This document shows, one piece after another, positions 5,255-51,867 of a DNA stretch of 64,000 bases; position 1 is the stretch's first letter; every line of letters starts with the position of its first letter. The notes under the pieces were generated by a model. The model was not told where the DNA came from. It saw nothing but the letters and a program-made list of their open reading frames with translations, and did no database searches. The stretch is from Kiritimatiellia bacterium (GTDB lineage Bacteria; Verrucomicrobiota; Kiritimatiellia; RFP12; DVOR01). Both the position numbers and the translations under genes were made by a program. The stretch covers positions 104,576-168,575 of the forward strand of contig JAVBLT010000007.1 of assembly GCA_031553315.1 (NCBI GenBank), read 5' to 3'.

Positions 5255-6051
5255 ACGCCCTGCGCCACTGGCAGCAGAGCAACCTGCCCGCATTGCGCCG
5301 CCTCGCCTTCGCGCCCACGCCCCACACCGGCGTCACCCTCATCGCCTACACCTTTCCCGCCCCCGAAAACGAAGACCTCTGGTTCGCCTGGCTCGAAGCC
5401 GCCCTCCTTCAAAGCTGGCGGCAGCTCGGCCTCATGAAAACGGTGATCGTGGCCCACGCCCCCTTCCCCGCCGTGACCGCCTTCCGCGCCCGCTGGCCCC
5501 ACGTGGAGCTGCAAATCGAACCCACCCTCGTGCCGGGCGACATCTGGTCGATGAGCCTCGACTGCATCGCGCGCCTCGCCGACCGTTTCACCACCCCCCA
5601 TTGCCTCATCGTGCAGGACGACGGTTTCCCCATCGCCTCCAACCTTGCCGACTTCCTCCGCTGGGACTACATCGGCGCCCCCCTCGTCCGCGACATCCCC
5701 CGCCAGCGCCTCGCCGACCTCATCGGCTTCTCCGTGGGCATCGGCGGTTTTTCCCTCCGAAGCCGGCGCCTCTGCCTCTCCGCCGCCCGCCACTGGCGCC
5801 TCGGCTGGCGCCGCCTCTACCGGCGCGGCTCCTGGTGGTTCAGCGAAGACATCTTCTACGCCGTGACCCTCCGCCTCGCCTCCCCCCTCTACCGCCTCCG
5901 CCACCGCTTCCCGCCCGCCCGCCAGGCCGCCGCCTTCGCGATCGACGCCACCCTCGGCCGGAGCCCCGCCATCCGCCCCTTCGGCTTCCACGGCGCCGAA
6001 ACCTTCACCCTCCTCCAGGAGAAAGGCTGGCAGCCCGATGCCCCCGAATAA
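5251..6051 (+). CDS. hypothetical protein, DUF5672-like (putative glycosyltransferase-like fold)
   Basis: GTGA overlap with lipA stop; conserved-looking blocks CLIVQDDGF, WDYIGAP, GIGGFSLRSRR, FGFHGAETF; start codon uncertain (GTG 5251 or internal). Confidence 0.45.
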   Translation: MNALRHWQQSNLPALRRLAFAPTPHTGVTLIAYTFPAPENEDLWFAWLEAALLQSWRQLGLMKTVIVAHAPFPAVTAFRARWPHVELQIEPTLVPGDIWSMSLDCIARLADRFTTPHCLIVQDDGFPIASNLADFLRWDYIGAPLVRDIPRQRLADLIGFSVGIGGFSLRSRRLCLSAARHWRLGWRRLYRRGSWWFSEDIFYAVTLRLASPLYRLRHRFPPARQAAAFAIDATLGRSPAIRPFGFHGAETFTLLQEKGWQPDAPE

Positions 6052-7948
6052 ACTCGCCCTCCCCGGCCTCCTCATCCTTTTTCCGACCCTCATCGTCTGC
6101 GCCGCCATGCTCGGCCTCCTCCTGGGCATTCCCGTGACCCGCTGGATCGTTCCCACGGTTTTGTTCGGTCTCGCGGTCTTTTCACTTCTCACCCCAGCCG
6201 CTCGCCGCCCCTTCGGCGCCTTCCTCGGCATCCTCCTCGCGCTCTACGCCGCCAACCTCCTCAACCTCTGCGACTACGGGTGCGATTCCCACAGCTACCA
6301 CACCCCCGCCGCCATTCTCCTCGCCCACGGCTGGAACCCCTTCGCCGACCCCCAGGCCGCGGCCTTCCTCGAAGCCCACACCCTCGACCCCGCCAGCCTG
6401 CGCCTCTTCCCCGCCGTCAGCCAGCCCCTCTTCATTCCCCTTCTCGGCGCCACCCTCTACGCCGCCACCGGCCAGCTCAACGCCGCCGGATTCTTCGACC
6501 CCTACTGGGTCGTCGCCGCCTTTGCCTTCATCTGGGCCATCCTCCCCCGTTTCGAGCCCCGCCTCGCCGGCCGCGCCCTCCCGCGCGCCGCCATCGCCCT
6601 CCTCCTCAGCTGCCACCCCATCGAGCTACTCGTGGGCTTTTCAGGCCCGGCCGACATCCCCCGCTTCACCTTCGCCGCCATCTTCCTCGCCTCCCTCGAG
6701 CTCTTCCGGCGAACCGGCAAAAAAACCGACTTTCAGCTCGCCCTCCTCTGCGCCGGCATCCTCCTCGCCGTGAAGTTCAACGCCCTGCTCATCATCGCCG
6801 CCGCCGCCCTCCTCTACGCCTGGCCCCTCCTCAAAACACACCGCGCCGGGCTTCTGCGCACGGCCCTTCCCCTCCTTCCTATCCTCCTCCTCCTTTGCGC
6901 CTACCCCTACCTCCACAACGCCCTCCGCTACCGCGCGCCGCTCTACCCCATCCAGACCAACGCCCACACCCCCCCCGCCCAATCCCTCACCCCCGATTTC
7001 CACGTGATGAATGCCGACGCCGCCTCCATGAACCGCCTCCAGCGCCTCGCCCATGCCTACCTCTCCCCCGCCCTCCTCCCCCGCCTCAACCCCCGCTCTC
7101 AAGTGCTCAACGCCTTCGACGGCGCCGGCCCCTTCTTCCGCCTCCTCCTCCTCCTCAGCCTCCCGCTCCTCACCGCCCACGGCACCCTCCGCCTCCCCGC
7201 CGCCGCCATCCTCCTCGCCACCCTCGCCATCCCCACCCTCTACGCCGGCTACGCCCGCTACGCCCTCGAATTCACCCTCCTGCCCACCCTCCTCGCCCTC
7301 AACGCCCTCACAGCCCCCCAGCCCCCCTGGCGCCGCTGCCTCGCCCTCGCCATCCTCCTGCTTAGCCTCGCCTTCCTCCTCACCCGCCTCACCCTCATCC
7401 AGGGCGGCCGCGCCATCCGCCGGCAATTGGCCGACACCGCCGCCAGCCTCGCCCTCGGCGACCCCCGCACCCAAATCGATGCCCGCGCGGCCATCGACCC
7501 CGCCGCCTACCCCCTGCGCCCCTTCCCCGTGCCCCGCCACGAATGGCCCCCCGAAATGACGCTCCTCTACGCCGCCCAGCTCCTCGACTCCTTCACCCCG
7601 CCCCGCCCCCTGCGCGCCGTCCACTCCAGCTTCCCGGCCGACATCGACTCCCCCGCCCCCCATTCCCCCCTCGTTCTGCGCTGGCCCTGGGAAGGCTTCG
7701 CCTTCATCCCCCCTCCCCCCCTCCGCCGCACCCTCCGCACCCTTGCCGACGGCGCCACCCCCGATGCCCCCGGCACCCTCGCCGCCTTCCGCCGCCTCCT
7801 CGACCCCACCCTCCTGCGCGCCACCCTCGCCTTCGCCGCCGACCAGCGCCCCCTTCAGCTCCGCCGCGCCTGGACCGCCCCCATCCTCGACCGACCCTTT
7901 CCCTCCATCCCCCCCGTCAATCACGACCGGGAAATGAACCCCGATTGA
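6038..7948 (+). CDS. polytopic integral membrane protein (about 12 TM segments then Pro/Ala-rich C-terminal domain; GT-C-like topology)
   Basis: ATG overlaps end of upstream gene by 14 nt; consecutive hydrophobic helices through about aa 450; low-complexity proline-rich tail; 636 aa. Confidence 0.5.
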   Translation: MPPNKLALPGLLILFPTLIVCAAMLGLLLGIPVTRWIVPTVLFGLAVFSLLTPAARRPFGAFLGILLALYAANLLNLCDYGCDSHSYHTPAAILLAHGWNPFADPQAAAFLEAHTLDPASLRLFPAVSQPLFIPLLGATLYAATGQLNAAGFFDPYWVVAAFAFIWAILPRFEPRLAGRALPRAAIALLLSCHPIELLVGFSGPADIPRFTFAAIFLASLELFRRTGKKTDFQLALLCAGILLAVKFNALLIIAAAALLYAWPLLKTHRAGLLRTALPLLPILLLLCAYPYLHNALRYRAPLYPIQTNAHTPPAQSLTPDFHVMNADAASMNRLQRLAHAYLSPALLPRLNPRSQVLNAFDGAGPFFRLLLLLSLPLLTAHGTLRLPAAAILLATLAIPTLYAGYARYALEFTLLPTLLALNALTAPQPPWRRCLALAILLLSLAFLLTRLTLIQGGRAIRRQLADTAASLALGDPRTQIDARAAIDPAAYPLRPFPVPRHEWPPEMTLLYAAQLLDSFTPPRPLRAVHSSFPADIDSPAPHSPLVLRWPWEGFAFIPPPPLRRTLRTLADGATPDAPGTLAAFRRLLDPTLLRATLAFAADQRPLQLRRAWTAPILDRPFPSIPPVNHDREMNPD

Positions 7949-12552: not shown

Positions 12553-13020
12553 ATGAAGCTACTTCGCTGGATTGGCTATTCGATTCTTTTCATCATCGGT
12601 TTGTATTATGGCAGCGTGGCGCTCGGCTACATGCTCAACCCCCTCTTCCCCGCCACCTGCACGATTGACCGCGATTTCCGCGAGGTTCAACAAAAAATGG
12701 AAGAAATGGGAAAAGAACCGCAACATGAATTCATGAGAGGGCTGGTCGGTAATCAGACCAAATGGTTCAAGGTTCTGGAGGCTACCCCTGAAAAATCGCT
12801 TCAGGTTGAATTTGAAACGGTCTACAACATCGGCTATGGCTGGGAAACCGTCGGCATTACAATTTCATCCGAAGGCACGGCAAAAACAAATCTGGTCGTG
12901 GACTACTCCGAGTTTGGTTTTTATCCCTTTTTTCCGCCGTTCGCGGGCTACAACCCCGGATTCATCCGCGAGCGGCAATTGCGTAACCGGCTGAAAGAGA
13001 TTCTTTCGAAACGCACATAA
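12553..13020 (+). CDS. hypothetical membrane-anchored protein (lower GC than flanks)
   Basis: ATG with A-rich RBS; N-terminal TM helix; no recognisable family; 155 aa. Confidence 0.4.
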   Translation: MKLLRWIGYSILFIIGLYYGSVALGYMLNPLFPATCTIDRDFREVQQKMEEMGKEPQHEFMRGLVGNQTKWFKVLEATPEKSLQVEFETVYNIGYGWETVGITISSEGTAKTNLVVDYSEFGFYPFFPPFAGYNPGFIRERQLRNRLKEILSKRT

Positions 13021-13078: not shown

Positions 13079-13360
13079 ATGATGTCTGCAACAACCACCA
13101 ATTTGACCATTCGCGTTGAAACCTCGCTGAAAAAGGAAGCGGATATGCTCTTTTCAGATTTGGGGATGAACCTCTCGATCGCTTTCAATATCTTTCTGCG
13201 CCAGGCGCTCCGCGTTCAGGGATTACCCTTTGAAGTGATGCGCGATACGCCCAACAAAGAAACGCTGGCCGCCATGCGTGAAGCCAAACGAATTGCCCGC
13301 GATCCCGATGTGAAAGGCTTCACGGATATGGAGAGCCTTTTGAACGATCTGAACGCATGA
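13079..13360 (+). CDS. dinJ: type II antitoxin, RelB/DinJ family
   Basis: 93 aa, ribbon-helix-helix-like N-terminus (TNLTIRVETSLKKEADMLF), stop overlaps start of toxin gene (ATGA). Confidence 0.7.
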   Translation: MMSATTTNLTIRVETSLKKEADMLFSDLGMNLSIAFNIFLRQALRVQGLPFEVMRDTPNKETLAAMREAKRIARDPDVKGFTDMESLLNDLNA

Positions 13361-13632
13361 CCTACGAAATCAAGCGGACGGGGCTTTTCAAAAAAGATTA
13401 CGAGAAAATGTTTAAACGCGGTGCGAACATGGCGCTCTTGCATGAGGCCATTGACCTGTTGCGACAAGGGTTGCCGCTTCCCGAACGCTTCCGTGACCAC
13501 ACGCTTTCAGGGGATTACGCCGGATACCGCGAATGCCATATCAACCCCGATTGGCTGTTGATTTACTACATTGAGACCGAGGTGCTTGTTTTAACGCTGC
13601 CCCGAACGGGAACCCATAGCGACCTTTTTTAA
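13357..13632 (+). CDS. yafQ: type II toxin, YafQ/RelE family mRNA interferase
   Basis: 91 aa; KKDYEKMFKRG…HTLSGDYAGYRECHINPDWLLIYYI matches YafQ family signature. Confidence 0.75.
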   Translation: MTYEIKRTGLFKKDYEKMFKRGANMALLHEAIDLLRQGLPLPERFRDHTLSGDYAGYRECHINPDWLLIYYIETEVLVLTLPRTGTHSDLF

Positions 13633-13656: not shown

Positions 13657-15612
13657 TTATTTCATGCTCGGCAGCACGATGCCGCGCATGATCACGCGCT
13701 GGCAGGCGAGGAAGACTGCGGCGGTGGGCACCGAGATCATCACGAAGCCGGCCATGACGACCCAGGGGCGGTCGGAGAATTGCTGGCTCATCTGGTACAT
13801 CCACACGGCGAGCGTCCAGTGCGATTGTTTTTGGCACACCAGAAGCGCCCATTCCCAGCCGCTGTAGGCGGAGATGAAGGCGTTGAGGGCGTTGACGGCG
13901 AGGATGGGAGTGGTCATGGGGAGGGTGATCTTGCGGAAGATCTGCCACTCGCCGGCGCCGTCGATGATGGCGGCTTCGTAGAGCTCGCGGGGGAGACCGT
14001 CGAAAAAGCCTTTGAGGATGAAGATGGAGAGGCCGTTGGCCACGGTGGGCAGCACGAGGGCGGCGAAGGTGTTGAGCAACCCGAGCTGACGGATTAAAAT
14101 GAAGCCGGGAATGGCGGTGACGGCCGCAGGGAAGGCCATGGTGGCCAGAAGGAAGAGGAGGATGCTCTCGGTGCGCCGCAGGCGGAAGCGCGAAAGGGCG
14201 TAGGCGGCGAGGGGGTTGACGGTGAGGGTGGCGCAGATGGTGAGGATCACGAGGATGAGGGTGTTGGTGAAGGCGCGGCCGCGAAGGAAGAGGTAATCGC
14301 AGACGTTGCGGTAATTGGCGGTCATGTCGGAGGCGAGCATTCGCAGGCCGCAGTTGGCGTAGGTCACGGCAAAGGCTTCGGCAAAGGGAAAGCGCGCCTG
14401 CTCAAAGGATGCAAGCTGCCAGCCGTAGGCTTCATTGAGCCCGGCAATGCTGTAGCGGGCGCGGAGGAAGGCCTGCCAATCGGCCTCGGGGGAATGGGGG
14501 GTGAGGGCGGCGAGAGGCACGCGGGAAACAAAGCCGCGCTCAAGGGCGGTGGCGGGGCGGGCGCTCAATGGAATCGCTTCAAGCGCGGCGGGAGCGGGGT
14601 CTCCGGTGAGGGCGGCGTAGTTTTCGGGGGTGCGGCAGGTTTCATGGAGGTATTCATGCCATGCCCGGGTCAGCCCGGGGGTGACGCTCAGGGTGAGGAG
14701 CCGCTTCGGCCAGGCGGTTTGCACGAAGGCGCCCCAGTGGGGCGAATCGGGCGCGGGAAAATGGGCGGGGGCGGGGCCGAGGCCGTTTTTCTTGAGGTAG
14801 GTTTCCCAGAGGGGGCGGATGAGGAAGGGGCGGGTGCGGGTGTAGGGGGCGTACCCGGAAACAAATTCGACAAAGCGCCCCCATTCGGCGCTTTCGGGGG
14901 GCACGGGCCATGTGGCGGAACCGCTCTCTTTTTTCCAGGCGCGCTCGGCGCCGGGATGGAAGGCGAGGTTGCGGTAGGCGGTTTTGAAGGCCTGATAGAG
15001 GTCGCTTTTGGGGTCGCCCTGGGGCCAGTCCCAATCGGGGTGGTGCATGGGCATGCGTTGCTGGGCGCGCATGCGGATGCCGAAGAAGGAGCTGTAGCGG
15101 ATCTTCCAGGCGACGTTGAGGCGGTCGAGGGTTCCAAAGGCGCGCTGGACGAAGGGCCCCACGTCGCGCTCATCGAAGAGGCAGATGGAGTTGCTCACGC
15201 TGTAGGTGGCGTTGAAGGCGGCGTAATCGGCGGCCATGCGCTGCCAGCGGGCGCGGGTGGAGGGATCGCGCAGACCCTCGAGCCAGGGTCGGGCGAAAGC
15301 GTCGATACCGGCGGTATCGCGCGCGACCACGGTCCAGCTGCCCCAATGGGCGGGGGCGGCGGGGTAGACTTCGCGGGGAAACATCGGGTGCACGGAGGCC
15401 ATCACGCGCATAAACCGGTCTTCGCCGTTGAAGAGGGAGCGGAGCACGGGAGAGTAGCGGTGATAATCGAAGCGGTTGGTGAGCGAACCGGTGAACATCA
15501 TGAGGAAGGGCCAGATCATGGTGAAGGCGCCGAGGGTGAGCACGGCGTAGACGAGCGCGATGATGAACCGCGCTTTGAATGATTTTCGCTCGATGGGAAG
15601 GATGACGGGCAT
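13657..15612 (-). CDS. ABC transporter permease (CUT1 MalG-like core) with about 380-aa periplasmic insertion after TM1
   Basis: C-terminal EAAIIDGAGEWQIFRKITLPMTTPIL EAA-loop signature; 651 aa; stop abuts upstream gene start (3-nt gap). Confidence 0.75.
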   Translation of the reverse strand: MPVILPIERKSFKARFIIALVYAVLTLGAFTMIWPFLMMFTGSLTNRFDYHRYSPVLRSLFNGEDRFMRVMASVHPMFPREVYPAAPAHWGSWTVVARDTAGIDAFARPWLEGLRDPSTRARWQRMAADYAAFNATYSVSNSICLFDERDVGPFVQRAFGTLDRLNVAWKIRYSSFFGIRMRAQQRMPMHHPDWDWPQGDPKSDLYQAFKTAYRNLAFHPGAERAWKKESGSATWPVPPESAEWGRFVEFVSGYAPYTRTRPFLIRPLWETYLKKNGLGPAPAHFPAPDSPHWGAFVQTAWPKRLLTLSVTPGLTRAWHEYLHETCRTPENYAALTGDPAPAALEAIPLSARPATALERGFVSRVPLAALTPHSPEADWQAFLRARYSIAGLNEAYGWQLASFEQARFPFAEAFAVTYANCGLRMLASDMTANYRNVCDYLFLRGRAFTNTLILVILTICATLTVNPLAAYALSRFRLRRTESILLFLLATMAFPAAVTAIPGFILIRQLGLLNTFAALVLPTVANGLSIFILKGFFDGLPRELYEAAIIDGAGEWQIFRKITLPMTTPILAVNALNAFISAYSGWEWALLVCQKQSHWTLAVWMYQMSQQFSDRPWVVMAGFVMISVPTAAVFLACQRVIMRGIVLPSMK

Positions 15613-15615
15613 GGC

Positions 15616-18126
15616 TTAATTCGTGTCGGCGCGGCGGAATTCGACCTTGCGCAGAATGCGGAATTGCAGGTAGGTGAAGCCGATGAGACCCACGCCGAGA
15701 AACCAGGCCATGGTGGTGGCGGTGCCCAGGCGCAGGTTGTTGTAGGCTTCTTTCCAAATGGCGAGGCTGAGGACGTTGGTGGCGTCGCCGGGGCCGCCGA
15801 AGGTGAGCAGGAAGATGGAGCCGATGCTCTGGAAGGCGGCGATGAAGGCGCCCACGAAGTTGATGACCATGAGGGGGAGGAGCTGGGGGAAGAGAATGTG
15901 GCGGATGCGGCTGCGGAACCCCGCGCCGTCGATGGCGGCGGCTTCGAAATAATCGGGCGGGAGCCCCTGGAGCGCGGCGATGTAGATGAGGCTCGAGATG
16001 CCCGCGCCCGCCCACACGCCCGGCAGCACGCAGCAGAACATGGCAAGGGCCGGATCCTGGAGCCAGGCCTGCGGGGCGAAACCGAAGAGGGCGAGGAGGC
16101 GGTTGAGCATACCGTTTTCGGTCGGGTCGTACATCATCTGCCACAGGAGGGTGACCACGAGGGTCGAGGTGAGGTGCGGCAGGAAGTAGATCATGCGGAA
16201 GAAGACCTTTCCGCGCGGGATTTCGGTGAGGAGCACGGCGAGGATAATCGGCGCGGTGAAACCGAAGAAGAGCGTGAGGCCCACGTATTTGAAGGTGCGC
16301 AGCGCGGCGGCCTGAAAGCCGGGATCCGTCGCCACGGTGATGAAGTTGTCGAGGCCGACCCAGGGGCTTTCGCCGACGATGCGGTAGTTGCGGAAGGCCA
16401 TCGCCACGCCTTGGAAGAGGGGGTAGTAGCTCCACAGCACAATCGAAAGAATCGCGGGGGCAAGCATCCACGCGGCATGGAAACGGCTCCGGCTCTCCAT
16501 GCCGCCGGCCTCCGGGGGCGCGGGCTTCTTTTTGCGCACGGTCAGCGCGGTGAGCCACGCAATCAGCGCGATCACGCCGCCGATCAGGGCGCGGGCGATG
16601 GGGCGGTAACGGTCGAGCTCGGCTTCGGGCACGGCGAACATGAGGCCGCGGTTGGCGTCGGCATTGATGCGGCGGAGGGCTTCGGCGGTATCGAAATCGC
16701 GCCCGGCTTCGGAGAGGACGATGCCGATGAGCCGGCGCTGGATGAGGTCGCTGACGCCTTGCCAGAAGCCGACGAAGGGCTCGGTTTTGGCTTCGATGGC
16801 GCCGGTGGCGAGGTCGTCGTAAAGGGCGCGGATCGTGGGGGGGATTTCGTCGAGATAAGCCTCGAGGCCGAGGCGTTTGAGGTCGGCGGGGTTGCACCAG
16901 CGGGCGTTGCCTTCGAGGACTTTTTCGCGGATGGCGGCATCGTTGAGGCTGGGGCTGGCGAGCTGCTCCACGCAGGCGAAGACGAGATCCTGCTCCTCTT
17001 TGGGGCGCCGCGCCACGCCTTCGCTGATGCCCCAGAAGTGTTTGTGCGCCTGGAGGAAGCGCGGCATGCCGGGCTTGAAGGCGGGAAAGGGCATGATGCC
17101 GATGAGGTCGGGGTCGAGGTTGGAGTTGGCGGTGATGCGCTCCATGACCTCGGTGCCGGCAAACATGGCGACCACTTCGCCGAGGACGAAGCGCTCGGTG
17201 TCGTTGAGCGGAAGCTGCCGGGCCACGCCGTAGATGACGCCGCCGGAAGGCGGGGTGTCGGGCGGGAGGTCGACGGGTTCCCCCGTTTCGGGATCCACTT
17301 TCCAGGGAGCCCAGGCGAGGCGCTGGAGGAACCGCGCGGCTTCGCCGGCGCCTTCGGAGTCGAAATTGGCGCGCCAGGTTCCGGGCGCGGCCGAGAGGTC
17401 TTCACCGGATTCGGTGACAACGAAACGCGTTTCCTCCATTGGAAACAGATGTTTTTTACCCGTTTTCGGTGATATTTTTTCCTGCACCACGGGCGATGCG
17501 CCGGCGGATTGCATCCAGGGGAGCCAGTTCCACGGCGCCACGGAGATGCCGAAGGCGCGCTGGCCTTTGTGCTGGCTGCCGGGCACGGCCATGTGGGGGC
17601 GGGTGAGCTTTTGGCACCAGCGGTAGAATTCATCCCAGGTCTGCGGGAGCGCTTCGGGGTCGAGGCCGGCGTTGCGCACAAGATCTTTGCGGTAGATGAT
17701 GCCGTAGTAGGCGATGGAGGACGAGGGGAGGCCGTAGACCTTGCCGTCTTGGGTGGCCACGCGGCGCCAGAGCTCGGGCACGGCATCCCAGCCGGACCAA
17801 TTTTCAAGCCAGGGGTCGAGAGGGAGGAGGAAACCGTTCTCAATGTCGTTGCGGATGATGTGGAACCAGCAGGTGTAGATGTCGGGGGCGTTTCCGCCGG
17901 CCATCGCGAGGAGGAGCGGGGCGCGGCCTCCGGCGCCGGGAAGGGTCAGCCCGCCCCATTTCACGGGGTAGAGCTCGGGCCGCTGCTCCGTGAAGGCAAG
18001 AATGCGCCGGGTGACGGCCCCCTCGGGGGAATCGGGATCATAGCCGCCCAGAAACGACACTTCAACAGGCCGCGCCGAAAGCAGGAGCGGAACGAGAAGC
18101 GCGGATAGAAAAAAACGGTGAAACAT
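15616..18126 (-). CDS. fusion protein: family-1 extracellular solute-binding domain (aa 1 to about 500) + MalF-like ABC permease domain (about aa 520-836)
   Basis: Signal peptide, SBP1-like AMAGGNAPDIY motif, linker TM (ALIGGVIALIAWLTALTV) then permease with EAAAIDGAGFRSRIRHILFP EAA-loop; 836 aa. Confidence 0.7.
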   Translation of the reverse strand: MFHRFFLSALLVPLLLSARPVEVSFLGGYDPDSPEGAVTRRILAFTEQRPELYPVKWGGLTLPGAGGRAPLLLAMAGGNAPDIYTCWFHIIRNDIENGFLLPLDPWLENWSGWDAVPELWRRVATQDGKVYGLPSSSIAYYGIIYRKDLVRNAGLDPEALPQTWDEFYRWCQKLTRPHMAVPGSQHKGQRAFGISVAPWNWLPWMQSAGASPVVQEKISPKTGKKHLFPMEETRFVVTESGEDLSAAPGTWRANFDSEGAGEAARFLQRLAWAPWKVDPETGEPVDLPPDTPPSGGVIYGVARQLPLNDTERFVLGEVVAMFAGTEVMERITANSNLDPDLIGIMPFPAFKPGMPRFLQAHKHFWGISEGVARRPKEEQDLVFACVEQLASPSLNDAAIREKVLEGNARWCNPADLKRLGLEAYLDEIPPTIRALYDDLATGAIEAKTEPFVGFWQGVSDLIQRRLIGIVLSEAGRDFDTAEALRRINADANRGLMFAVPEAELDRYRPIARALIGGVIALIAWLTALTVRKKKPAPPEAGGMESRSRFHAAWMLAPAILSIVLWSYYPLFQGVAMAFRNYRIVGESPWVGLDNFITVATDPGFQAAALRTFKYVGLTLFFGFTAPIILAVLLTEIPRGKVFFRMIYFLPHLTSTLVVTLLWQMMYDPTENGMLNRLLALFGFAPQAWLQDPALAMFCCVLPGVWAGAGISSLIYIAALQGLPPDYFEAAAIDGAGFRSRIRHILFPQLLPLMVINFVGAFIAAFQSIGSIFLLTFGGPGDATNVLSLAIWKEAYNNLRLGTATTMAWFLGVGLIGFTYLQFRILRKVEFRRADTN

Positions 18127-18231
18127 GGGCGGTATGGTAACACAGCGGAGGGGGCGGGGTCAATGGCGGGAACCGCCAACACCCGGCGATAAAAAAAGAG
18201 GCGCTCCTTTCGGGGCGCCTCTTTCGCGGGA

Positions 18232-21200
18232 TCAGGTGAAATCCGGCTCGACCACAACCGGGCGGACGATTCTCGGCTGGAAGGCCTTGACCGCCGGATC
18301 CGTTTGCGGGATCAGGGCCTGGCCGGCGCCGACCCAGGCGCCGCCGTCGGGAAGCTGGATGACGACGCCGCGATAGTTCACCATCACGGTGCGCAGCAGG
18401 GTGGTGTTGCGCGGGCCGGGCACTTCGGCATAGCCCCGGAAGGCGCCGCTGAAGAGGCCGTTGGCGAGGGTCACGCCCCAGGTGAGGCGGGCGGAGTTCT
18501 CGGCGGAGAAGTCGTAGCTGCCGTCGGGAAGCTTCACGGGGGAGGTGGATCTGGGGGCCACGAGGGCTGTACCGCGGGCATTGGGGGCGAGGAGGGTGCC
18601 GGCCTCGATGGAATCGAACCGCAGGTCGGTCAACGATTCGGTGGCGCGGGCTTCGAACCACGGAATGCTGTCGAGATAAGCGCCGAAGCGGTGTTCTTCA
18701 ACCACGGTCGCTTCGCGGCGGTAGGTGTAACCGATGGCCGCGAAGGCGGTGAGGGGGGTGCCGTTTTTCTCCCAGTGGAAGGGCCAGTCGTGATACGTGG
18801 TCACGCGGATGGCGCCGGCATCGCTTTCGGGCTCGGGGCTGAACCAGAGGAGGCCGCCGACGGAACCCTTCACGCTCATGGCGCGGTTGGCGATGCCGGA
18901 AGCGACTTTGGCGCTGAAGACCTTGAGGATGGGGGCTCCGGCCAGGAGACCTTCTTCCGTGTAGAGCTGAAGGGTATCGGCGCCGCTGAAGGTGGTGCCG
19001 TCGGGCAGGGCGCCGGAGTAGCGCATCGATCCGGCGGCGCTCACGGTGAGGGTGAGGTAACCGGAGGCGTACGAGCGGCGGCGGCCCAGGGGGGCGTCGT
19101 CATCCACGAAGGCGGCGGTGTAGGTGCCTTTGAGGCGGTTGAGGGCATCCATGGCCACGAAGTCGGACTTGTCTTTGAAACGGTTGCGGGAGCCGTCGAT
19201 TTCGAATTCCTCGCCGTCGGGCGACAGGGCGGTACCCCAGATGCGGCCGGAGCGGACGGCGATTTCGAGTGCCCAGCCGGTGCGGGAGGCGAAGGCGGCC
19301 CAGGGGGTGCCGTCGTCGTCAACCAGGCTCCAGGTTTTGGCGACGGGGAAGGTGATGCGGCCCGCGGGGGTGCCGAGCACGGCGGAGATTGAACCGCCGG
19401 TCGACACAGTCACCGTGAGGGTGGCGCCCACCTTCCAGTATTCGTCGGTTTCGCCGGTGGCTTCCACATAGGTGTGGATGAAGCCGTTGTAGATGCCGGC
19501 GGCAGACCAGGCGGGAGCCTCGGCGGGATCGTCGAAGGGCTTGGTGTATTCGCGCCACTGGGCGTAGTAACGGGTATCGGTCGCGCCGGCGAGGGCGGTT
19601 TCTTCAATCAAGTCGCCCGCCGGGGAGGCGCTCCAGCCGAGGAAGCGGAAGCCTTTGACCGGTTCGGGCGTGCCGAGCTGGTCGTAGAGCGAAACGCCGG
19701 TGACGAGGTTGTTGGTCACGCTGGTGACGACGCCTTCTTCGTTGGTCACGGTGTAAACGCCCCGCACAAGGTAGCTCGCTTCGAGCGTTATGGGCGAAAC
19801 GTCTAGCCCGGCCCAGGCGAAGGTGGCGTTGGTCACGGCAAACACACCGTTGGTCACGAAGCCTGTGAAGGGGCGCCCGGCGGCGTTGACGAGGTTGGTC
19901 GCGGTGAAGGTCTTTTCGGTGCCGTAGGGCAGGATAAAGGCGCCGGCGGGGTCGATCGCCCCGGTCGAGCTGATCTGCACGAAGGCGCCTTCGGCCGCGC
20001 CCATGTCGATGGAATCGCCCGCAAGGCGGGGGTTGCCGTAGAGGTCGATCCCGGTCACGGTCAGGCCGTTGGTGGTGCCTGCGTCGATGCAAGGCGAGCC
20101 GGGGAGGAGGCGGCAATCGCCGGTTACGGCGTTGATGAAAGCCGGTTCGGAGGCGATGTTGCCCTCGCCGGCGGCTCCGCCTTCAATGCAGGAGTAGGCG
20201 GCGGTTCCGCCGGAAACTTGCGTGATACCGCTGTTGCCCCAGACAATGGCGTTGAGCAGGGTGCACCCGTCGACGGCGGCTGCGTCGGCGCCCAGGTTTC
20301 CGAGCACCGTGCAGTTGGTCAGCAGGCTGTTTTTGACGGCGCAGGCGCCGGCGGTGGCGCTGTTTTGGAAAACCGCGCAGTTGGTCAGGCTGCTTTCCAA
20401 TGCGCCGCTGACGTCGGCGGCGGTGTTGTTCACGAGGCGGCAATTGATCAGCGTGCCGCCGAGCGCACCCCCGGCCAGGCCTGCCACGCCGCTGCCGTTG
20501 GGGGAGCCGTAGCGCAGGGTGAAGCCGATGAGTGCGGTGGCCTGATACGAGGTGCCGTTGGCCTCAAGGTCGGCATACTGGTCGTCGCTCATGAGCGACG
20601 CCGCGCGACCGCCGACGGCGCCTTGGATAAAGGTTTTTCCCGCGCCTTCCACGCTCTCAACGGTGATGGCCTTGTTGGCGGTGGCGATGAGGAAGTAGGT
20701 CCCGTTGGTGACGGTGACGGTATCGCCCTCCTCGGCGAGGTCGATGGCGGCCTGAATGGTTTTCTTGGCGGCGGCCCAGGTGAGGCCGTTGCCGGAATCA
20801 TCGGCGCTGGCGGCGTTCACGTACCACGTGGCGGGGGCCACGCTGAAGGCGCCCATGTTGATGACTCCGCCGGTGAAGAGTGTTTTGCCGTTCATATCGA
20901 GCAGAGGTTCGGCGGAGGCGGGGTCGCCGGCGCCGCGGCAGGGGGAATAGGGGGTGAGAAGGTAGTTGCCGGCGGCGGCATCGGCGAAAACGGGGTCAAC
21001 GAGGATGTTGCCCACGGGGGTTCGGCCGGAACCCTTGAGATCGGTGAGGGTGGTGCGGTAGCTGTTGGTGTTCACGCAGGAGTAGGCCACATCGCACAGG
21101 TTGATGTCGTTTTTGCCGTTGGCCTCGGAATGCGAAATGTTACCCCACACCACGGAATTGGTCACGGCGCACAGGCTCAGGCCGCCCGCCATTTCGTAGG

Positions 21201-22665
21201 CTTCGTTGTCCGCAACGGTGCAGTTGAAGAGAATGCTGTTTTCAGCGCCGCCACCGTACTCGCCGGCGTTGCCGACGATGAGGCAGCCGATGGCAGTGGC
21301 AAGCTCGATGCCGCCACCGTAATCGCCCCAGTTGTTGGTGACGACGCAGTTGACGATGGTGCCGCCGAGCGCGCCGCTGCCTTCGAAGCTGTCGCCGTTG
21401 GTGAGCGTGAACCCGACGAGCGTGCTGCCGGGGAAAGAAGCCACGGGAATGGCGTTGCTCCCCCAGTCGACGGCGTCATGATCGGCGGAAGCCATCAGCT
21501 TGGCGCAGCGCGTGGCGCATTCGGCGTCGATGATGGTCGCCTTGGCGCCTTCGACGCTCTGAATGGTGATGGCCTTGCCTTCGGTGACGATGGGCGCGTA
21601 GGTGCCGTTGGTGACGGTGACGGTGTCGCCGGCGAGGCAAAGGTCGATGGCGGCCTGGATGGTGGCCTTGGCGGTTTCCCAGGAGAGACCGTCGTTGGCG
21701 TCGGCGCCGGCGGCGGCGCTCACATAGTAGGCCACAGGGTCGCGAAGCGGAGGAGCGAAGGTGCCAAAGGCGCCCATGTTGACGCGGCCATTGGTGTAAA
21801 GCGAGTGGCCGTTGATGTCGACCGATTCGAGCGTCGTGGGGTCCCCGGTGCCGGCGCAGGGAGAAGCGGGCTGGAGGCGGTAATCACCCGATGCGGCATC
21901 CACAAAGAGCGGAGCGGCGGTGATGCAGGGCGGGGCGAGGCTGTCGGCGCCCCCTTCCACACAGGAAAACGTAACGACGCAGGCGGAAATCTGATAGGCG
22001 GGCGGAAGCATCGGCACGGAATTGCCGTAGACAATGCAGTTCTTCAGAACACAGCTTTGCGCGCCGCCGCCGATTGCGCTTAAGAATCCGCCCTGATTGT
22101 TGACGAGCGTGCAGTTGGTGAGGATGCAGCCGGCCGCGCCGATTGCCTGCGTGGATAGGGGGCCGATGGCGAAGTTGTCGGCAATCAGGCAGTTTTCCAA
22201 AACGGCATCAAGAGCGACGGCGCCCCCGCCAAGCGCGCAGTTGTCAACAATTCTGCAATTTTTCACGGTGCCGCCGTAAACGCCGGCGCCGGAGCCTGCC
22301 AAACCGTTTTGAAGCGTGAACCCCTTCAACACCGTGGCGACACCTCCGGTTACGGAGTCGAGCGTGGCGCAGGGAAGCATCGCGCCGCCGTCAATCGTCG
22401 TGGCCAGCGCGCCTTCCACGCTCTGAATGGTGATGGCTTTGTTGCCGCTGACGATGGGCGCGTAGGTGCCGTTGGTGACGGTGACGGTGTCGCCGGCGGA
22501 GGCGGCCACAATGGCGTCCTGAATGGTTTGCATGGCGGTGGCCCAGGAGGTGCCGTCGCCGCCGGGCGAAGCGGCAAAATTGACGTAATACGTTTCCGCC
22601 GAAGCGGTCAGACCAAGCCCCGTCGCGAAAATCGCGCCGAGCAACACAGAACGGAGTGAATTCAT
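18232..22665 (-). CDS. giant secreted protein: three tandem right-handed parallel beta-helix modules (each capped by GDYRL/NYLL…SPC…AGD motif) + about 550-aa C-terminal region
   Basis: Signal peptide MNSLRSVLLGAIFATGLGLTASA; three copies of GDTVTVTNGTYAPIV…AITIQSVEGA blocks; NC(T/A)xxxN beta-helix rungs; 1477 aa. Confidence 0.7.
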   Translation of the reverse strand: MNSLRSVLLGAIFATGLGLTASAETYYVNFAASPGGDGTSWATAMQTIQDAIVAASAGDTVTVTNGTYAPIVSGNKAITIQSVEGALATTIDGGAMLPCATLDSVTGGVATVLKGFTLQNGLAGSGAGVYGGTVKNCRIVDNCALGGGAVALDAVLENCLIADNFAIGPLSTQAIGAAGCILTNCTLVNNQGGFLSAIGGGAQSCVLKNCIVYGNSVPMLPPAYQISACVVTFSCVEGGADSLAPPCITAAPLFVDAASGDYRLQPASPCAGTGDPTTLESVDINGHSLYTNGRVNMGAFGTFAPPLRDPVAYYVSAAAGADANDGLSWETAKATIQAAIDLCLAGDTVTVTNGTYAPIVTEGKAITIQSVEGAKATIIDAECATRCAKLMASADHDAVDWGSNAIPVASFPGSTLVGFTLTNGDSFEGSGALGGTIVNCVVTNNWGDYGGGIELATAIGCLIVGNAGEYGGGAENSILFNCTVADNEAYEMAGGLSLCAVTNSVVWGNISHSEANGKNDINLCDVAYSCVNTNSYRTTLTDLKGSGRTPVGNILVDPVFADAAAGNYLLTPYSPCRGAGDPASAEPLLDMNGKTLFTGGVINMGAFSVAPATWYVNAASADDSGNGLTWAAAKKTIQAAIDLAEEGDTVTVTNGTYFLIATANKAITVESVEGAGKTFIQGAVGGRAASLMSDDQYADLEANGTSYQATALIGFTLRYGSPNGSGVAGLAGGALGGTLINCRLVNNTAADVSGALESSLTNCAVFQNSATAGACAVKNSLLTNCTVLGNLGADAAAVDGCTLLNAIVWGNSGITQVSGGTAAYSCIEGGAAGEGNIASEPAFINAVTGDCRLLPGSPCIDAGTTNGLTVTGIDLYGNPRLAGDSIDMGAAEGAFVQISSTGAIDPAGAFILPYGTEKTFTATNLVNAAGRPFTGFVTNGVFAVTNATFAWAGLDVSPITLEASYLVRGVYTVTNEEGVVTSVTNNLVTGVSLYDQLGTPEPVKGFRFLGWSASPAGDLIEETALAGATDTRYYAQWREYTKPFDDPAEAPAWSAAGIYNGFIHTYVEATGETDEYWKVGATLTVTVSTGGSISAVLGTPAGRITFPVAKTWSLVDDDGTPWAAFASRTGWALEIAVRSGRIWGTALSPDGEEFEIDGSRNRFKDKSDFVAMDALNRLKGTYTAAFVDDDAPLGRRRSYASGYLTLTVSAAGSMRYSGALPDGTTFSGADTLQLYTEEGLLAGAPILKVFSAKVASGIANRAMSVKGSVGGLLWFSPEPESDAGAIRVTTYHDWPFHWEKNGTPLTAFAAIGYTYRREATVVEEHRFGAYLDSIPWFEARATESLTDLRFDSIEAGTLLAPNARGTALVAPRSTSPVKLPDGSYDFSAENSARLTWGVTLANGLFSGAFRGYAEVPGPRNTTLLRTVMVNYRGVVIQLPDGGAWVGAGQALIPQTDPAVKAFQPRIVRPVVVEPDFT
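19968..22596 (-). repeat. three tandem intragenic direct repeats (about 0.87-0.9 kb each) encoding the beta-helix modules
   Basis: Near-identical DNA stretch of about 90 nt (…tccacgctctgaatggtgatggc…gacgatgggcgcgtaggtgccgttggtgacggtgacggtgtcgccggcg) at about 22420-22497 and about 21556-21634; diverged third copy at about 20645-20730. Confidence 0.7.
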
Positions 22666-23134
22666 TTGTTTATTTTTCCTTAATTAGTAAGTAAAAACGT
22701 ACACAACGTGCACGGGTAAGAAGGATATCAGAGACGCGCTTTTTTGGGAAGCGGATTTTTTAAAATTTTATTGACGCATCCCATACTAAAATTTTACCCG
22801 AATTCCCTCCGCCCAAATGAAACGGAACGGGAGGTGAAAATCATTTTTAAACGCATCGAAAATAAACAATAACAGTAAAATTCACAATCGATTATTCCAA
22901 AAATAATTCGAATTTCACAATTCAACTCAACCTTTCTCTATCGATAAGAAAATATCGGTTTGAAAAAAATGACGTGCCGTTTTCAGTTGACGTTTTTCCC
23001 CTCGGCCGCGCCATCCGAAACACATGCGGCCGGAATCGGGCAAGATCCGTTTTTCTCCCTGTTTGACTTTTCGGCGGGTTTACGCTATCATGCCCGGTTT
23101 ATGTGTTGAAGCACACAGGAAACAGGAAACCCAT
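22666..23134. promoter_or_regulatory. 469-bp AT-rich divergent intergenic region (promoters for the beta-helix gene and the carboxyltransferase gene)
   Basis: GC drops to about 35-40% versus about 69% in flanks; several TTGACg/TAnnnT-like elements; no ORF with coding signal. Confidence 0.5.
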
Positions 23135-24976
23135 ATGACCGATAAACCCGCCTCCGCCAGCACCAAACAGGTTCGTTTCACCGACACCACCTTGCGCGAT
23201 GCGCACCAGTCGCTCTGGGCCACCCGCATGCGCACGGCCGACATCATGGGCATCGTTGAAACCATCGACCAGGCCGGCTACTACTCCCTCGAATGCTGGG
23301 GCGGCGCGACGTTCGACGTAAGCATGCGTTTCCTCCGCGAAGACCCCTGGGAGCGCCTCCGCCAGATCAAAAAAATCTGCTCCACGCCCCTTCAGATGCT
23401 CCTGCGCGGCCAAAACGTGCTCGGCTACCGCCATTACCCCGACGACGTGCTCGAGCGTTCCATCGCCCTCGCCTGCGAAAACGGCATGGATATCTTCCGC
23501 ATTTTCGACGCCCTCAACGACAACCGCAACCTCGAGGCCGCCATCCGCGCCGTGAAGAAATACGGCGGCCACGCCCAAGGCACCATCTGCTACACCGTCA
23601 GCCCCGTGCACACCGCCGCCAAATTCGTGGAAATCGCCCGCGAACAGGTCCAGATGGGCATCGACACCCTCTGCATTAAAGACATGGCCGGCATCCTCAC
23701 CCCCGCCGCCGCCCGCGAGCTCGTGGCCGCCCTCCGCGCCGCCCTCCCCGAGCTGCCCATCCAGGTGCACTCGCACATGACCAGCGGCATGGCCCCCGCC
23801 ACCTACCTCGCCGCCGTCGAAGCCGGCGCCGGCGCCATCGACTGCTGCATCGCCACGCTCTCGGGCATCTCCTCCCAGCCCGCCGTGGGCACCATGAAAG
23901 CCATCTTCGAAGACCTCGGCTACGCAACCGGCCTCAAGGTCGACAAACTCAACGCCGTCAACGACTACTTCCGCAAAGTCAAACCCGGTCGCGAGCCCGC
24001 CTCCAGCGGCGCCGTGGAAGTGGTCGACGTGCAAGTCCTCCAGCACCACATCCCCGGCGGCATGATCTCCAACCTCCGCTCCCAGCTCGCCCAGCAAGAC
24101 GCGCTCGACCGCCTCCAGGAAGTGATGGACGAGCTCCCCCGCACCCGCAAAGACATGGGCTACCCCCCCCTCGTGACCCCCACCAGCCAGATCGTCGGCG
24201 TGCAGGCCGTGCTCAACGTGCTCTCCGGCAAACGCTACGAAATGGTCACCCAGGAAACCCGCGATTACGTGCGCGGCCTCTACGGCGCCTCCCCCGCCCC
24301 CGTGGATCCCGCGCTGGCCGCCCAGATCCTCGGCGGCGAAGCGCCCATCACCTGCCGCCCCGCCGACCTCCTCGAGCCCGGCCTCGCCAAAGCCGCCGCC
24401 GAGCTCGACCCCGCCCTCATCCAGAGCGAGGAAGACATTCTTTCCTACTGCATGTTCCCCGAAGTGGCCCTCGGCTACTTCAAATGGCGCGCCAAGCCCG
24501 AAGCCGAGCGCGACGCGATCCCCGCCGACACCGAGCGCGCCCCCAAAGCCGCCCCCGCCGCCGAAGCCCCCGCCGCGCCCGCGCCCGCCGCCGAAGCCGC
24601 CCGCTTTGAAGCCATCGGCAAAATGGTCGCCGGCATCTTCGCCCACCTCGGCGGCGTGCCCGCCGGCGCCCTGCCCGAATTCACAGCCCCCGAGGCCCCC
24701 AAAGCCGCCGAAGCCGCGCCCGCCCCCAAGGCCGAAGCCCCCAAAGACGTGCTCTGCGCCACCCTCGCGGGCACCTTCTACCGCTCCGATTCCCCCTCCA
24801 AGCCCGCCCTCGCGGAAGAAGGCGCCCACGTCAAAGCCGGCGCCCCCGTGTGCGTGCTCGAAGCGATGAAGCTCTTCAACCCCCTCAAGGCCGTGAAAGA
24901 CTGCACCATCATCCGCTTCCTCGTCAAACCCGGTGAAAACGTCGCCAAAGGCCAGCCCATCGCGGAAATCGCTTAA
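23135..24976 (+). CDS. biotin-dependent carboxyltransferase 5S subunit with C-terminal biotinyl domain (oxaloacetate decarboxylase alpha / pyruvate carboxylase subunit B family)
   Basis: RBS aggaaacaggaaac; VRFTDTTLRDAHQSL pyruvate-carboxyltransferase motif; Ala/Pro-rich linker; biotinylation site EAMKLFNP near the C-terminus; 613 aa. Confidence 0.8.
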   Translation: MTDKPASASTKQVRFTDTTLRDAHQSLWATRMRTADIMGIVETIDQAGYYSLECWGGATFDVSMRFLREDPWERLRQIKKICSTPLQMLLRGQNVLGYRHYPDDVLERSIALACENGMDIFRIFDALNDNRNLEAAIRAVKKYGGHAQGTICYTVSPVHTAAKFVEIAREQVQMGIDTLCIKDMAGILTPAAARELVAALRAALPELPIQVHSHMTSGMAPATYLAAVEAGAGAIDCCIATLSGISSQPAVGTMKAIFEDLGYATGLKVDKLNAVNDYFRKVKPGREPASSGAVEVVDVQVLQHHIPGGMISNLRSQLAQQDALDRLQEVMDELPRTRKDMGYPPLVTPTSQIVGVQAVLNVLSGKRYEMVTQETRDYVRGLYGASPAPVDPALAAQILGGEAPITCRPADLLEPGLAKAAAELDPALIQSEEDILSYCMFPEVALGYFKWRAKPEAERDAIPADTERAPKAAPAAEAPAAPAPAAEAARFEAIGKMVAGIFAHLGGVPAGALPEFTAPEAPKAAEAAPAPKAEAPKDVLCATLAGTFYRSDSPSKPALAEEGAHVKAGAPVCVLEAMKLFNPLKAVKDCTIIRFLVKPGENVAKGQPIAEIA

Positions 24977-42188: not shown

Positions 42189-42227
42189 ACAAACGCCGCC
42201 CCTTGCCGGGCGGCGTTTGTTTTTGTT
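42189..42227 (+). terminator. strong rho-independent terminator after the 1396-aa surface protein gene
   Basis: 13-bp perfect stem ACAAACGCCGCCC/GGGCGGCGTTTGT, 6-nt loop, followed by TTTTGTT. Confidence 0.75.
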
Positions 42228-42280
42228 GCGTTGACGAATCCCCGTTTTTCAGCTACTTTATCCCCGAAAGGAATTCTGGA

Positions 42281-45543: not shown

Positions 45544-45553
45544 GAGCCATTCC

Positions 45554-46939: not shown

Positions 46940-46956
46940 CTCCGGGGGGAAACAGC

Positions 46957-46980: not shown

Positions 46981-46988
46981 ATCAGCAT

Positions 46989-51858: not shown

Positions 51859-51867
51859 GGAAACATC

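What the first reader, a model, noticed from the sequence alone, without database searches (positions are those of the whole stretch)
13657..22665. Atypical ABC importer (SBP fused to permease, second permease with about 380-aa periplasmic insert, no ATPase) downstream of a triple-beta-helix giant secreted protein
Three co-directional minus-strand genes are driven from a 469-bp AT-rich promoter region. The first is a 1477-aa protein with three tandem complete beta-helix modules. The second has a family-1 solute-binding domain covalently tethered to its MalF-like permease. The third is a MalG-like permease with a very large periplasmic domain. No nucleotide-binding subunit is encoded nearby, so a shared MsiK-like ATPase would be needed. 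Tethered-SBP carbohydrate ABC transporters are rare. Linkage to a secreted lyase/adhesin-like beta-helix protein suggests a dedicated capture-and-import system for an unknown polymer.
Basis: partly seen in the sequence, partly recalled or inferred. Interest (0 to 1): 0.6.

Follow-up and report, generated by a model that had tools for sequence, protein, structure and literature searches.

The report
Tethered-binding-protein sugar importer of Kiritimatiellia
Two adjacent genes encode an unusual but widely conserved sugar-uptake pump of Kiritimatiellia bacteria, with the sugar-catching protein fused to one membrane subunit and a large new periplasmic domain on the other; the giant beta-helix protein next door is an unrelated neighbour.

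Summary
The three minus-strand ORFs exist as described. They are a 1477-aa secreted protein with three tandem ~290-aa beta-helix modules, an 836-aa solute-binding protein (SBP) fused to a UgpA/MalF-like permease, and a 651-aa MalG/UgpE-like permease with a 412-aa periplasmic insert. No importer ATPase lies in the 64-kb window.

The fusion is real. More than 120 protein clusters and at least 194 species genomes, almost all Kiritimatiellia and relatives, keep it full length at 52-90% identity. The insert is equally conserved. AlphaFold models it confidently (pLDDT 93) as a mainly helical fold with no significant match among solved structures. It occurs only after TM1 of such permeases.

Two relatives carry a UgpC/MalK-type ATPase directly beside the pair, so this is an ordinary ATP-driven CUT1-type importer. 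Its genes are usually scattered: the second permease directly follows the fusion in only 9 of 63 judgeable loci.

The proposed link to the giant protein fails:
- An intrinsic terminator-like hairpin plus a promoter-like site lie between the giant gene and the transporter genes.
- No ortholog sits next to the fusion in 80 relatives.
- The closest relative has the same locus without the giant gene.

Verdict: a new, uncharacterised variant of a known transporter kind, of moderate interest.

The parts
15616..18126 (-). Gene for the 836-aa fusion protein. Order along the protein: signal peptide or N-terminal helix (aa 1-19), family-1 oligosaccharide-type SBP (aa ~20-500), extra TM anchor helix (aa ~508-531) followed by RKKK, a short cytoplasmic linker, then a six-TM UgpA/MalF-like permease (aa ~546-836) with an EAA motif at aa 728-747.
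   Evidence: Domain hits; hydropathy; AlphaFold model; Foldseek TM-score 0.69-0.79 (normalised to the target) to oligosaccharide SBPs; PDB sequence hits; EAA motif; conservation.
16627..18069 (-). SBP domain of the fusion (aa ~20-500). It has a complete MalE-like two-lobe fold and many invariant Trp residues.
16534..16605 (-). Extra transmembrane anchor helix (aa 508-531). It returns the chain from the periplasm to the cytoplasm ahead of permease TM1.
13657..15612 (-). Gene for the 651-aa MalG/UgpE-like permease. It has TM1 (aa 12-34), a 412-aa periplasmic insert and TM2-TM6 (aa 447-651), with an EAA motif at aa 546-565. Its start lies 3 nt after the fusion gene's stop codon.
14275..15510 (-). 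Periplasmic insert domain (aa 35-446). It is mainly helical, with four short strand-helix-helix units. It has no Pfam family and no significant match among solved structures.
18134..18163 (-). Promoter-like site for the transporter genes: TTGACC, 18 nt with TG, TACCAT. It ends 7 nt before the ATG at 18126, and no Shine-Dalgarno sequence is present. TACCAT with the same 7-nt spacing is found in the closest relative L088.
18191..18224 (-). Intrinsic terminator-like hairpin of the giant gene: AAAGAGGCGC, loop, GCGCCUCUUU, continuing into a U tract. It begins 8 nt after the stop codon.
   Evidence: Folding energy -25.4 kcal/mol for the 49-nt stretch, z -4.0, 0 of 200 shuffles as stable; sequence.
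18232..22665 (-). Neighbouring 1477-aa secreted or surface protein, not part of the transporter. It has a signal peptide, three tandem right-handed beta-helix-type modules (aa ~21-308, 309-612, 613-905) and a 572-aa C-terminal region with no family match.
22666..23131 (.). AT-rich (GC about 0.40) divergent intergenic region between the giant gene and the carboxylase gene. It contains promoter-like sites for the giant gene.

Best explanation
Genes 15616-18126 and 13657-15612 encode the two membrane subunits of a type I (CUT1-like) ATP-binding-cassette importer for a di- or oligosaccharide.

Proposed anatomy and mechanism:
- One subunit carries its own MalE-like binding protein. An extra transmembrane helix tethers that domain to a six-helix UgpA-like permease.
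- The partner, a MalG/UgpE-like permease, carries a conserved 412-aa helical periplasmic domain between TM1 and TM2.
- I infer that this domain is the docking or guiding platform for the tethered binding domain, the role the MalF P2 loop plays for MalE. This is inference, not shown.
- Both subunits keep the EAA coupling motif. They are therefore driven by a UgpC/MalK/MsiK-type ATPase dimer, whose gene lies elsewhere in this genome.

The system is a lineage-wide trait of Kiritimatiellia and neighbouring Verrucomicrobiota/Lentisphaerae lineages. Its genes have mostly become dispersed.

The upstream 1477-aa triple beta-helix protein is an independent, fast-evolving surface protein in its own transcription unit.

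Shown here: architecture, conservation, an ATPase partner in relatives, and lack of linkage to the giant gene. Inferred: import direction, sugar substrate, and the role of the insert.
For: Architecture:
- Pfam and NCBIfam domains.
- Topology from hydropathy and the positive-inside rule.
- AlphaFold model of the fusion.
- EAA motifs in both subunits.

The SBP is a complete oligosaccharide-type fold:
- phmmer hits to manno-, chito- and arabino-oligosaccharide binding proteins, best E 1.5e-14.
- Foldseek TM-score 0.69-0.79 (normalised to the target) to CbpB, GacH, TMBP, Lmo0181 and AbnE.

Conservation:
- The best 120 listed fusion clusters are all full length with both domains, 58-100% identical; 546 proteins reached E <= 1e-5.
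- 194 species genomes encode a relative.
- There are hundreds of invariant columns.
- Second-permease homologs are 46-63% identical over their full length, insert included.
- In every locus where the two genes are adjacent, the partner carries the insert.

ATPase:
- L061 has ATPase-fusion-permease with a 4-nt overlap between ATPase and fusion. L068 has fusion-permease-ATPase.
- Both ATPases pass the NCBIfam UgpC subfamily cut-off, 505 and 466 bits against 432.

Glycan context in relatives with complete operons: GH127, melibiase-like, GH38, GH35/42 and GH20 genes.

Independence from the giant gene:
- Terminator-like hairpin and promoter-like site between the genes.
- 0 of 80 loci have an ortholog next to the fusion.
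- L088 lacks the gene at the same locus.
- The giant protein has no close ortholog.
Against: - No ATPase gene is found in the 64-kb window, and the rest of the genome could not be searched, so the energising subunit in this organism is assumed.
- No substrate can be named. The best NCBIfam matches for the permeases and ATPases are Ugp-type, and the structural neighbours include UgpB and a dinucleotide-binding protein, so a non-sugar ligand is possible.
- The transmembrane part of the fusion model has low confidence, pLDDT 40-60.
- The terminator and promoter are sequence predictions; read-through transcription from the giant gene is not excluded.
- The role of the insert is pure inference. No complex model could be built.
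Confidence: 0.75

Rival explanations
1. One reading: the secreted triple beta-helix protein captures or cleaves an unknown polymer, and the adjacent tethered-SBP transporter imports the products. The three genes form one dedicated, co-transcribed system.
For: The three genes are co-directional and adjacent, with only 105 bp between the giant gene and the fusion gene. Large surface proteins also lie near fusion or permease homologs in some other loci, for example an LRR/Flg_new_2 protein in L001 and an FGE-sulfatase protein in L003.
Against: - A terminator-like hairpin plus a separate promoter-like site lie in the 105-bp gap.
- None of 80 related loci has an ortholog of the giant protein beside the fusion.
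- The closest relative, L088, has the same locus with the carboxylase gene directly upstream and no giant gene.
- The giant protein has no ortholog above 44% identity, whereas the transporter proteins are 60-90% conserved.
- No lyase family matches it.
- Giant multi-domain surface proteins are abundant in these genomes, so adjacency is expected by chance.
Confidence: 0.05
2. The system is the same ABC importer, but for a non-carbohydrate housekeeping solute such as a glycerophosphodiester, a nucleotide-derived compound or a cell-envelope recycling product. That would explain its class-wide, near-housekeeping conservation.
For: - The best NCBIfam matches are UgpA, UgpE and UgpC.
- Structural neighbours include M. 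tuberculosis UgpB and a dinucleotide-binding protein.
- In most Kiritimatiellia the genes sit among housekeeping genes, not glycoside hydrolases.
- Sequence conservation is very high.
Against: - The top sequence hits and most structural hits are oligosaccharide binders.
- The UgpB model matches only weakly and locally, E 5e-4 and far below its cut-off.
- Relatives with complete operons sit in glycoside-hydrolase clusters.
- The many invariant tryptophans are typical of sugar stacking.
Confidence: 0.12
3. The 412-aa insert is not a passive docking platform. It is a glycan-binding or catalytic (glycosidase-derived) module that trims or feeds oligosaccharides to the tethered SBP, making this a processing importer.
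For: - Distant family members give weak Pfam Glyco_hydro_42 hits in the insert, profile positions 147-207.
- The insert has many invariant aromatic and acidic residues.
Against: - Only about 127 of 412 residues align, with rmsd above 10 A.
- Foldseek finds nothing significant.
- The model has only four 3-residue strands, so there is no (beta/alpha)8 barrel.
- The GH42 similarity is confined to a helical hairpin segment of the profile, not the whole catalytic domain.
- The window protein itself gives no Pfam hit even at E 10.
Confidence: 0.08
4. The fusion or the insert is an assembly or sequencing artefact: a frameshift joining an SBP gene to a permease gene, or a chimeric insertion.
For: None found.
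Against: The identical architecture occurs in independent assemblies from NCBI, ENA, JGI and Logan, in more than 120 clusters and 194 species genomes. The junction helix and linker are conserved.
Confidence: 0

Closest known systems
Maltose/maltodextrin importer MalEFGK2 and other CUT1 (TC 3.A.1.1) sugar importers such as UgpBAEC and MsiK-dependent systems
   Same: - A family-1 MalE-like SBP.
- Two different BPD_transp_1 permeases with EAA motifs, one UgpA/MalF-like and one UgpE/MalG-like.
- In relatives, a UgpC/MalK-type ATPase.
- An ATPase gene unlinked from the permease genes, as in MsiK-type shared-ATPase systems (the MsiK comparison is from my own knowledge).
   Different: - The SBP is covalently fused to the N-terminus of the UgpA-like subunit through an additional TM helix.
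- The MalG-like subunit has a 412-aa periplasmic domain between TM1 and TM2. In MalFGK2 the large periplasmic loop is P2 of MalF, about 180 aa and between TM3 and TM4 (own knowledge).
- In most genomes even the two permease genes are unlinked.
ABC importers with fused substrate-binding domains (OpuA of the OTCN family; GlnPQ of the PAAT family)
   Same: The principle is the same: the binding domain is tethered to the translocator, which gives fixed stoichiometry and a high local concentration (own knowledge: van der Heide and Poolman 2002).
   Different: - Different transporter and SBP families. Here the domains are SBP_bac_1 and a CUT1-type permease, not glycine-betaine or amino-acid type domains.
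- The complex is a heterodimer with one tethered SBP, not a homodimer with two or four.
- An extra TM helix is needed because the fusion is at the cytoplasmic N-terminus of the permease.
Choice-of-anchor Q / DUF5123 / NosD-like right-handed parallel beta-helix surface proteins of Kiritimatiellia and Lentisphaerae (for the giant neighbour)
   Same: Tandem beta-helix modules with a choice-of-anchor Q match (50.5 bits, cut-off 25) and a DUF5123 match (40.3 bits, cut-off 35). Hundreds of multi-domain relatives share these modules.
   Different: The specific three-module plus 572-aa C-terminal arrangement has no close ortholog; the best homolog is 44% identical over 59% of the length. The C-terminal region matches no family.

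Membership tests
Type I ABC importer, CUT1-like (TC 3.A.1.1) | Two integral-membrane subunits of the BPD_transp_1 family carrying the EAA coupling motif | tested here: met
   Pfam BPD_transp_1 matched in both proteins. NCBIfam UgpA/MalF and MalG/UgpE models gave sub-threshold but full-length core matches. EAA-X3-G-X9-I-X-LP lies at aa 728-747 of the fusion and 546-565 of the second permease.
Type I ABC importer, CUT1-like (TC 3.A.1.1) | A family-1 (MalE-like) extracytoplasmic solute-binding protein | tested here: met
   SBP_bac_1 66 bits and SBP_bac_8 46 bits. PDB sequence hits to oligosaccharide SBPs. Foldseek TM-score 0.69-0.79, normalised to the target.
Type I ABC importer, CUT1-like (TC 3.A.1.1) | A MalK/UgpC/MsiK-type ATPase subunit | tested here: inconclusive
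   Absent from the 64-kb window. Present directly adjacent in relatives L061 and L068, where it passes the UgpC subfamily cut-off. The rest of this genome could not be searched.
Type I ABC importer, CUT1-like (TC 3.A.1.1) | ATP-dependent, SBP-dependent uptake of a sugar | not testable with these tools
   Requires a transport assay or ligand binding.
SBD-fused ABC importers of the OTCN/PAAT type (OpuA, GlnPQ) | A binding domain of the OpuAC or SBP_bac_3 type fused to a homodimeric permease | tested here: not met
   The binding domain is SBP_bac_1/SBP_bac_8 and the permease is UgpA-like, with a distinct MalG-like partner. Only the fusion principle is shared.
Dedicated capture-and-import locus (surface glycan-binding or degrading protein co-transcribed and co-conserved with its transporter) | Conserved co-localisation of the surface protein gene with the transporter genes | tested here: not met
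   0 of 80 related loci have an ortholog beside the fusion. The closest relative, L088, lacks the gene at the same locus.
Dedicated capture-and-import locus (surface glycan-binding or degrading protein co-transcribed and co-conserved with its transporter) | A single transcription unit | tested here: not met
   A predicted intrinsic terminator at 18191-18224 and a promoter-like site at 18134-18163 lie between the genes. This is a prediction only; there are no RNA data.
Polysaccharide/pectate lyase (for the beta-helix protein) | A match to a lyase catalytic family | tested here: not met
   Pfam and NCBIfam at E <= 0.01 gave only DUF5123, choice-of-anchor Q and a weak NosD N-terminal match. No PDB sequence hit.
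GH42-type glycoside hydrolase (for the permease insert) | A complete (beta/alpha)8 catalytic barrel | tested here: not met

The most novel reading that the evidence does not exclude
This dispersed-gene, tethered-SBP importer with a new-fold 412-aa periplasmic domain is the principal, class-wide oligosaccharide gateway of Kiritimatiellia. These bacteria were reported to lack TonB-dependent SusCD-type uptake genes (PMC5148204). In this reading the insert is a functional glycan-handling module (binding, gating or trimming) rather than a passive scaffold, which would define a new mechanistic subclass of type I ABC importers.
Probability: 0.2. Interest if true: 0.65.

Novelty: new variant of a known kind. 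Interest (0 to 1): 0.4.

Why it matters
Binding-protein fusions are textbook features of amino-acid and osmolyte ABC importers, not of CUT1 sugar importers. This family adds three things:
- an extra membrane anchor;
- a confidently modelled 412-aa periplasmic domain with no significant match among solved structures;
- an unusual genomic dispersal of subunit genes that must still assemble into one complex.

The family is strongly conserved across an abundant but poorly studied group of gut, rumen and sediment glycan degraders. It is therefore a good structural and biochemical target, and a possible marker for how Kiritimatiellia take up sugars.

The finding also corrects an attractive but unsupported capture-and-import story.

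Tried and rejected
- Frameshift or artefact origin of the fusion: rejected by conservation.
- Linkage to the giant protein: tested by tblastn over 80 loci, by terminator and promoter inspection and by the closest relative's locus. Rejected.
- Lyase identity of the beta-helix modules: no family or PDB sequence match.
- Identity of the insert:
  - No PDB sequence hit.
  - No Pfam hit even at E 10.
  - Foldseek gave nothing.
  - The AFDB library was unavailable.
- Riboswitch or other RNA in the intergenic regions: Rfam found only one chance-level hit.
- Flanking repeats that might mark the giant gene as a mobile insertion: only the internal module repeats were found.
- A possible relation between the 155-aa ORF at 12553-13020 and the conserved 157-aa ORF that precedes the fusion in relatives: only a marginal local match, a 37-aa segment at E 2e-4.
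- Literature searches for this architecture or for Kiritimatiellia ABC sugar transporters: nothing specific found.

Full report
**1. What is in the sequence**

The window is about 65% G+C, with a strong third-position GC bias that identifies the real reading frames. Three minus-strand ORFs occupy 13657-22665: 18232-22665 (1477 aa), 15616-18126 (836 aa) and 13657-15612 (651 aa).

The flanking genes are unrelated housekeeping genes:
- On one side: an SNF2 helicase, NfeD, an SPFH protein, a 155-aa ORF and a RelB/YafQ toxin-antitoxin pair.
- On the other side: a biotin-dependent carboxylase subunit, phosphofructokinase, an MsbA-like ABC exporter and a tricorn-like protease.

No importer-type ATPase is present in the 64 kb. 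A tblastn search with a MalK-type ATPase hits only the MsbA-like exporter, at 26% identity.

**2. The giant protein**

- It has a Sec-type signal peptide.
- It has three tandem ~290-aa modules that are 38-42% identical to each other (E 1e-42 to 1e-53). These are also visible as three DNA repeat copies about 900 bp apart.
- The modules match DUF5123, the choice-of-anchor Q domain and, weakly, the NosD N-terminus. These are right-handed beta-helix-type proteins.
- No lyase family and no PDB sequence matches.
- The 572-aa C-terminal part matches nothing.
- Its best homolog is only 44% identical over 59% of the length. Its relatives are a large, domain-shuffled set of surface proteins of Kiritimatiellia and Lentisphaerae.

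**3. The fusion protein**

- Residues 63-240 match SBP_bac_1 and SBP_bac_8, and residues 637-826 match BPD_transp_1. The permease part is UgpA/MalF-like.
- Hydropathy shows an N-terminal signal and a strongly hydrophobic helix at 510-528 followed by RKKK. The permease helices follow.
- This gives a consistent topology: SBP outside, anchor helix running out-to-in, a cytoplasmic linker, then the usual N-in permease.
- AlphaFold2, using 40 homologs, models the SBP at pLDDT 85-95 and a long helix at 501-531. The membrane part is helical but low in confidence.
- Foldseek shows a complete MalE-like fold. The TM-score normalised to the target is 0.69-0.79 for cello-oligosaccharide, acarbose/maltodextrin, trehalose/maltose, cycloalternan and arabino-oligosaccharide binding proteins.
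- phmmer against PDB sequences gives manno-, chito- and arabino-oligosaccharide binders, best E 1.5e-14.

**4. The second permease**

- TM1 (aa 12-34) is separated from TM2 (about aa 447) by 412 residues. The core at 447-646 is MalG/UgpE-like.
- Both subunits keep a canonical EAA motif, so both should contact an ATPase.
- With 64 homologs, the insert is modelled at pLDDT 93.2 and pTM 0.92. It is a mainly helical domain with four short strand-helix-helix units.
- It has no PDB sequence relative and no Pfam family even at E 10.
- Foldseek finds no match below E 2.4.
- Distant family members give weak Pfam GH42 hits confined to profile positions 147-207. The resemblance is therefore a local helical-hairpin motif, not a catalytic barrel.
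- An exhaustive phmmer of the insert against 1.84 billion representatives found only 71 clusters. Most matches to its N-terminal part begin at about residue 35 of the target, and every member checked also carries BPD_transp_1. The domain therefore seems to exist only inside this kind of permease.

**5. Conservation and distribution**

- The best 120 listed fusion clusters are all full length, with both domains, and 58-100% identical to the query. In all, 546 proteins reached E <= 1e-5.
- An alignment of 40 homologs has hundreds of invariant columns in both halves.
- A scan of GTDB species genomes found relatives in 194 species. The best 80 are nearly all Kiritimatiellia MAGs from guts, rumens, sediments and bioreactors, together with more distant Lentisphaerae- and Verrucomicrobiota-labelled bins at 52-55% identity.
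- Homologs of the second permease are likewise 46-63% identical over their full length, with a near-invariant membrane core.
- The two proteins repeatedly occur on the same contigs. Matching contig lengths of 232474, 53615, 256226, 125699 and 51143 appear in both lists.
- The fusion is therefore real, and it is a lineage trait.

**6. Gene context in relatives**

- Of 63 loci with at least 2.5 kb downstream of the fusion, only 9 have the insert-bearing permease directly downstream. Seven of these 9 are in the most distant group.
- Of 27 loci with at least 8 kb on both sides, 23 have no second permease at all.
- Solo second-permease genes lie among housekeeping genes. In L006 the gene sits next to NfeD and SPFH, as in the window.
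- Two relatives have a complete operon. L061 has ATPase-fusion-permease with a 4-nt overlap, and L068 has fusion-permease-ATPase. Both ATPases pass the NCBIfam UgpC subfamily cut-off.
- Relatives with linked genes sit among glycoside hydrolases: GH127, melibiase-like, GH38, GH35/42 and GH20.
- This supports a conventional ATP-driven sugar importer whose genes have been scattered in most Kiritimatiellia.

**7. The proposed link to the giant protein**

- Immediately after the giant gene's stop codon lies a perfect 10-bp GC-rich hairpin followed by a U tract (18191-18224). The 49-nt stretch folds at -25.4 kcal/mol, z -4.0.
- Then comes a promoter-like TTGACC-18-TACCAT that ends 7 nt before the fusion ATG, with no Shine-Dalgarno sequence.
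- None of the 80 related loci has an ortholog of the giant protein beside the fusion.
- The closest relative found is L088, with the fusion 90% identical, the second permease 81% identical, and the two genes adjacent. There the divergent carboxylase gene lies directly upstream of the fusion (89% DNA identity to window 23052-23310), with no giant gene between them. TACCAT sits at the same 7-nt distance from the ATG.
- The giant gene is thus a lineage-specific indel and a separate transcription unit. The capture-and-import reading is not supported.

**8. Mechanism**

Shown:
- The architecture and topology.
- The EAA motifs.
- The complete oligosaccharide-type SBP fold.
- A UgpC/MalK-type partner in relatives.

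Inferred:
- The tethered SBP binds a di- or oligosaccharide in the periplasm and docks on the heterodimeric permease.
- The 412-aa insert of the MalG-like subunit provides the docking or guiding surface. It would replace the MalF P2 loop, which the six-helix UgpA-like partner lacks.
- A UgpC/MsiK-like ATPase encoded elsewhere powers transport.

The substrate is unknown, and a non-sugar Ugp-like ligand is the main rival.

**9. Novelty**

Database names are generic ("extracellular solute-binding protein", "carbohydrate ABC transporter permease"). No paper found describes this architecture.

It is a new variant of a known kind. It is moderately interesting for ABC-transporter structure and mechanism and for Kiritimatiellia physiology, but it is not a new category of system.

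Noticed in passing
window 13082-13632 (+): A RelB antitoxin / YafQ-ParE toxin pair lies convergent with the second permease gene, and its end is only about 24 bp from that gene's stop codon. The Pfam calls come from the Logan copy of the locus (L004).
   Followed up: partly
L001 3893-10001; also L008-L018, L031, L032, L049: In 16 of the closest relatives the fusion gene is the last gene of a GspK/secretin (type II secretion or pilus-like) cluster. It is preceded by a conserved 157-aa ORF; in L001 and L002 that ORF's stop overlaps the fusion ATG. This hints at coupled expression of secretion and uptake. The arrangement is absent from the window.
   Followed up: partly
window 18126-18139; L088 ~600-623: A -10-like TACCAT sits exactly 7 nt upstream of the fusion ATG in both genomes, with no Shine-Dalgarno sequence. 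The mRNA may be leaderless.
   Followed up: partly
window 37985-42175 (+): A second giant ORF (1396 aa) has a lipobox-like LTGC signal and no Pfam match. It shows no similarity to the triple beta-helix protein.
   Followed up: partly
window 42203-55110: A cluster of glycan-degrading genes: a GDSL/SASA sialate-O-acetylesterase-like protein, an M60-like peptidase, and a GH31 enzyme with F5/8 type C and NPCBM domains. This suggests a host-mucin-degrading lifestyle.
   Followed up: no
whole window: Coding strands are strongly C-rich. GC skew is -0.2 to -0.49 over plus-strand genes and +0.15 to +0.32 over the minus-strand block at 14-22 kb. The skew tracks gene orientation rather than a replication arm.
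   Followed up: no
protein P0286 (1155 aa): A distant family member combines the insert-bearing permease N-terminus with a GH43 glycoside hydrolase domain. It could be a true fusion or a gene-calling or assembly artefact.
   Followed up: no
window 6038-7948 (+) and 12553-13020 (+): These are 636-aa and 155-aa ORFs in GC3-supported frames with no Pfam match.
   Followed up: no
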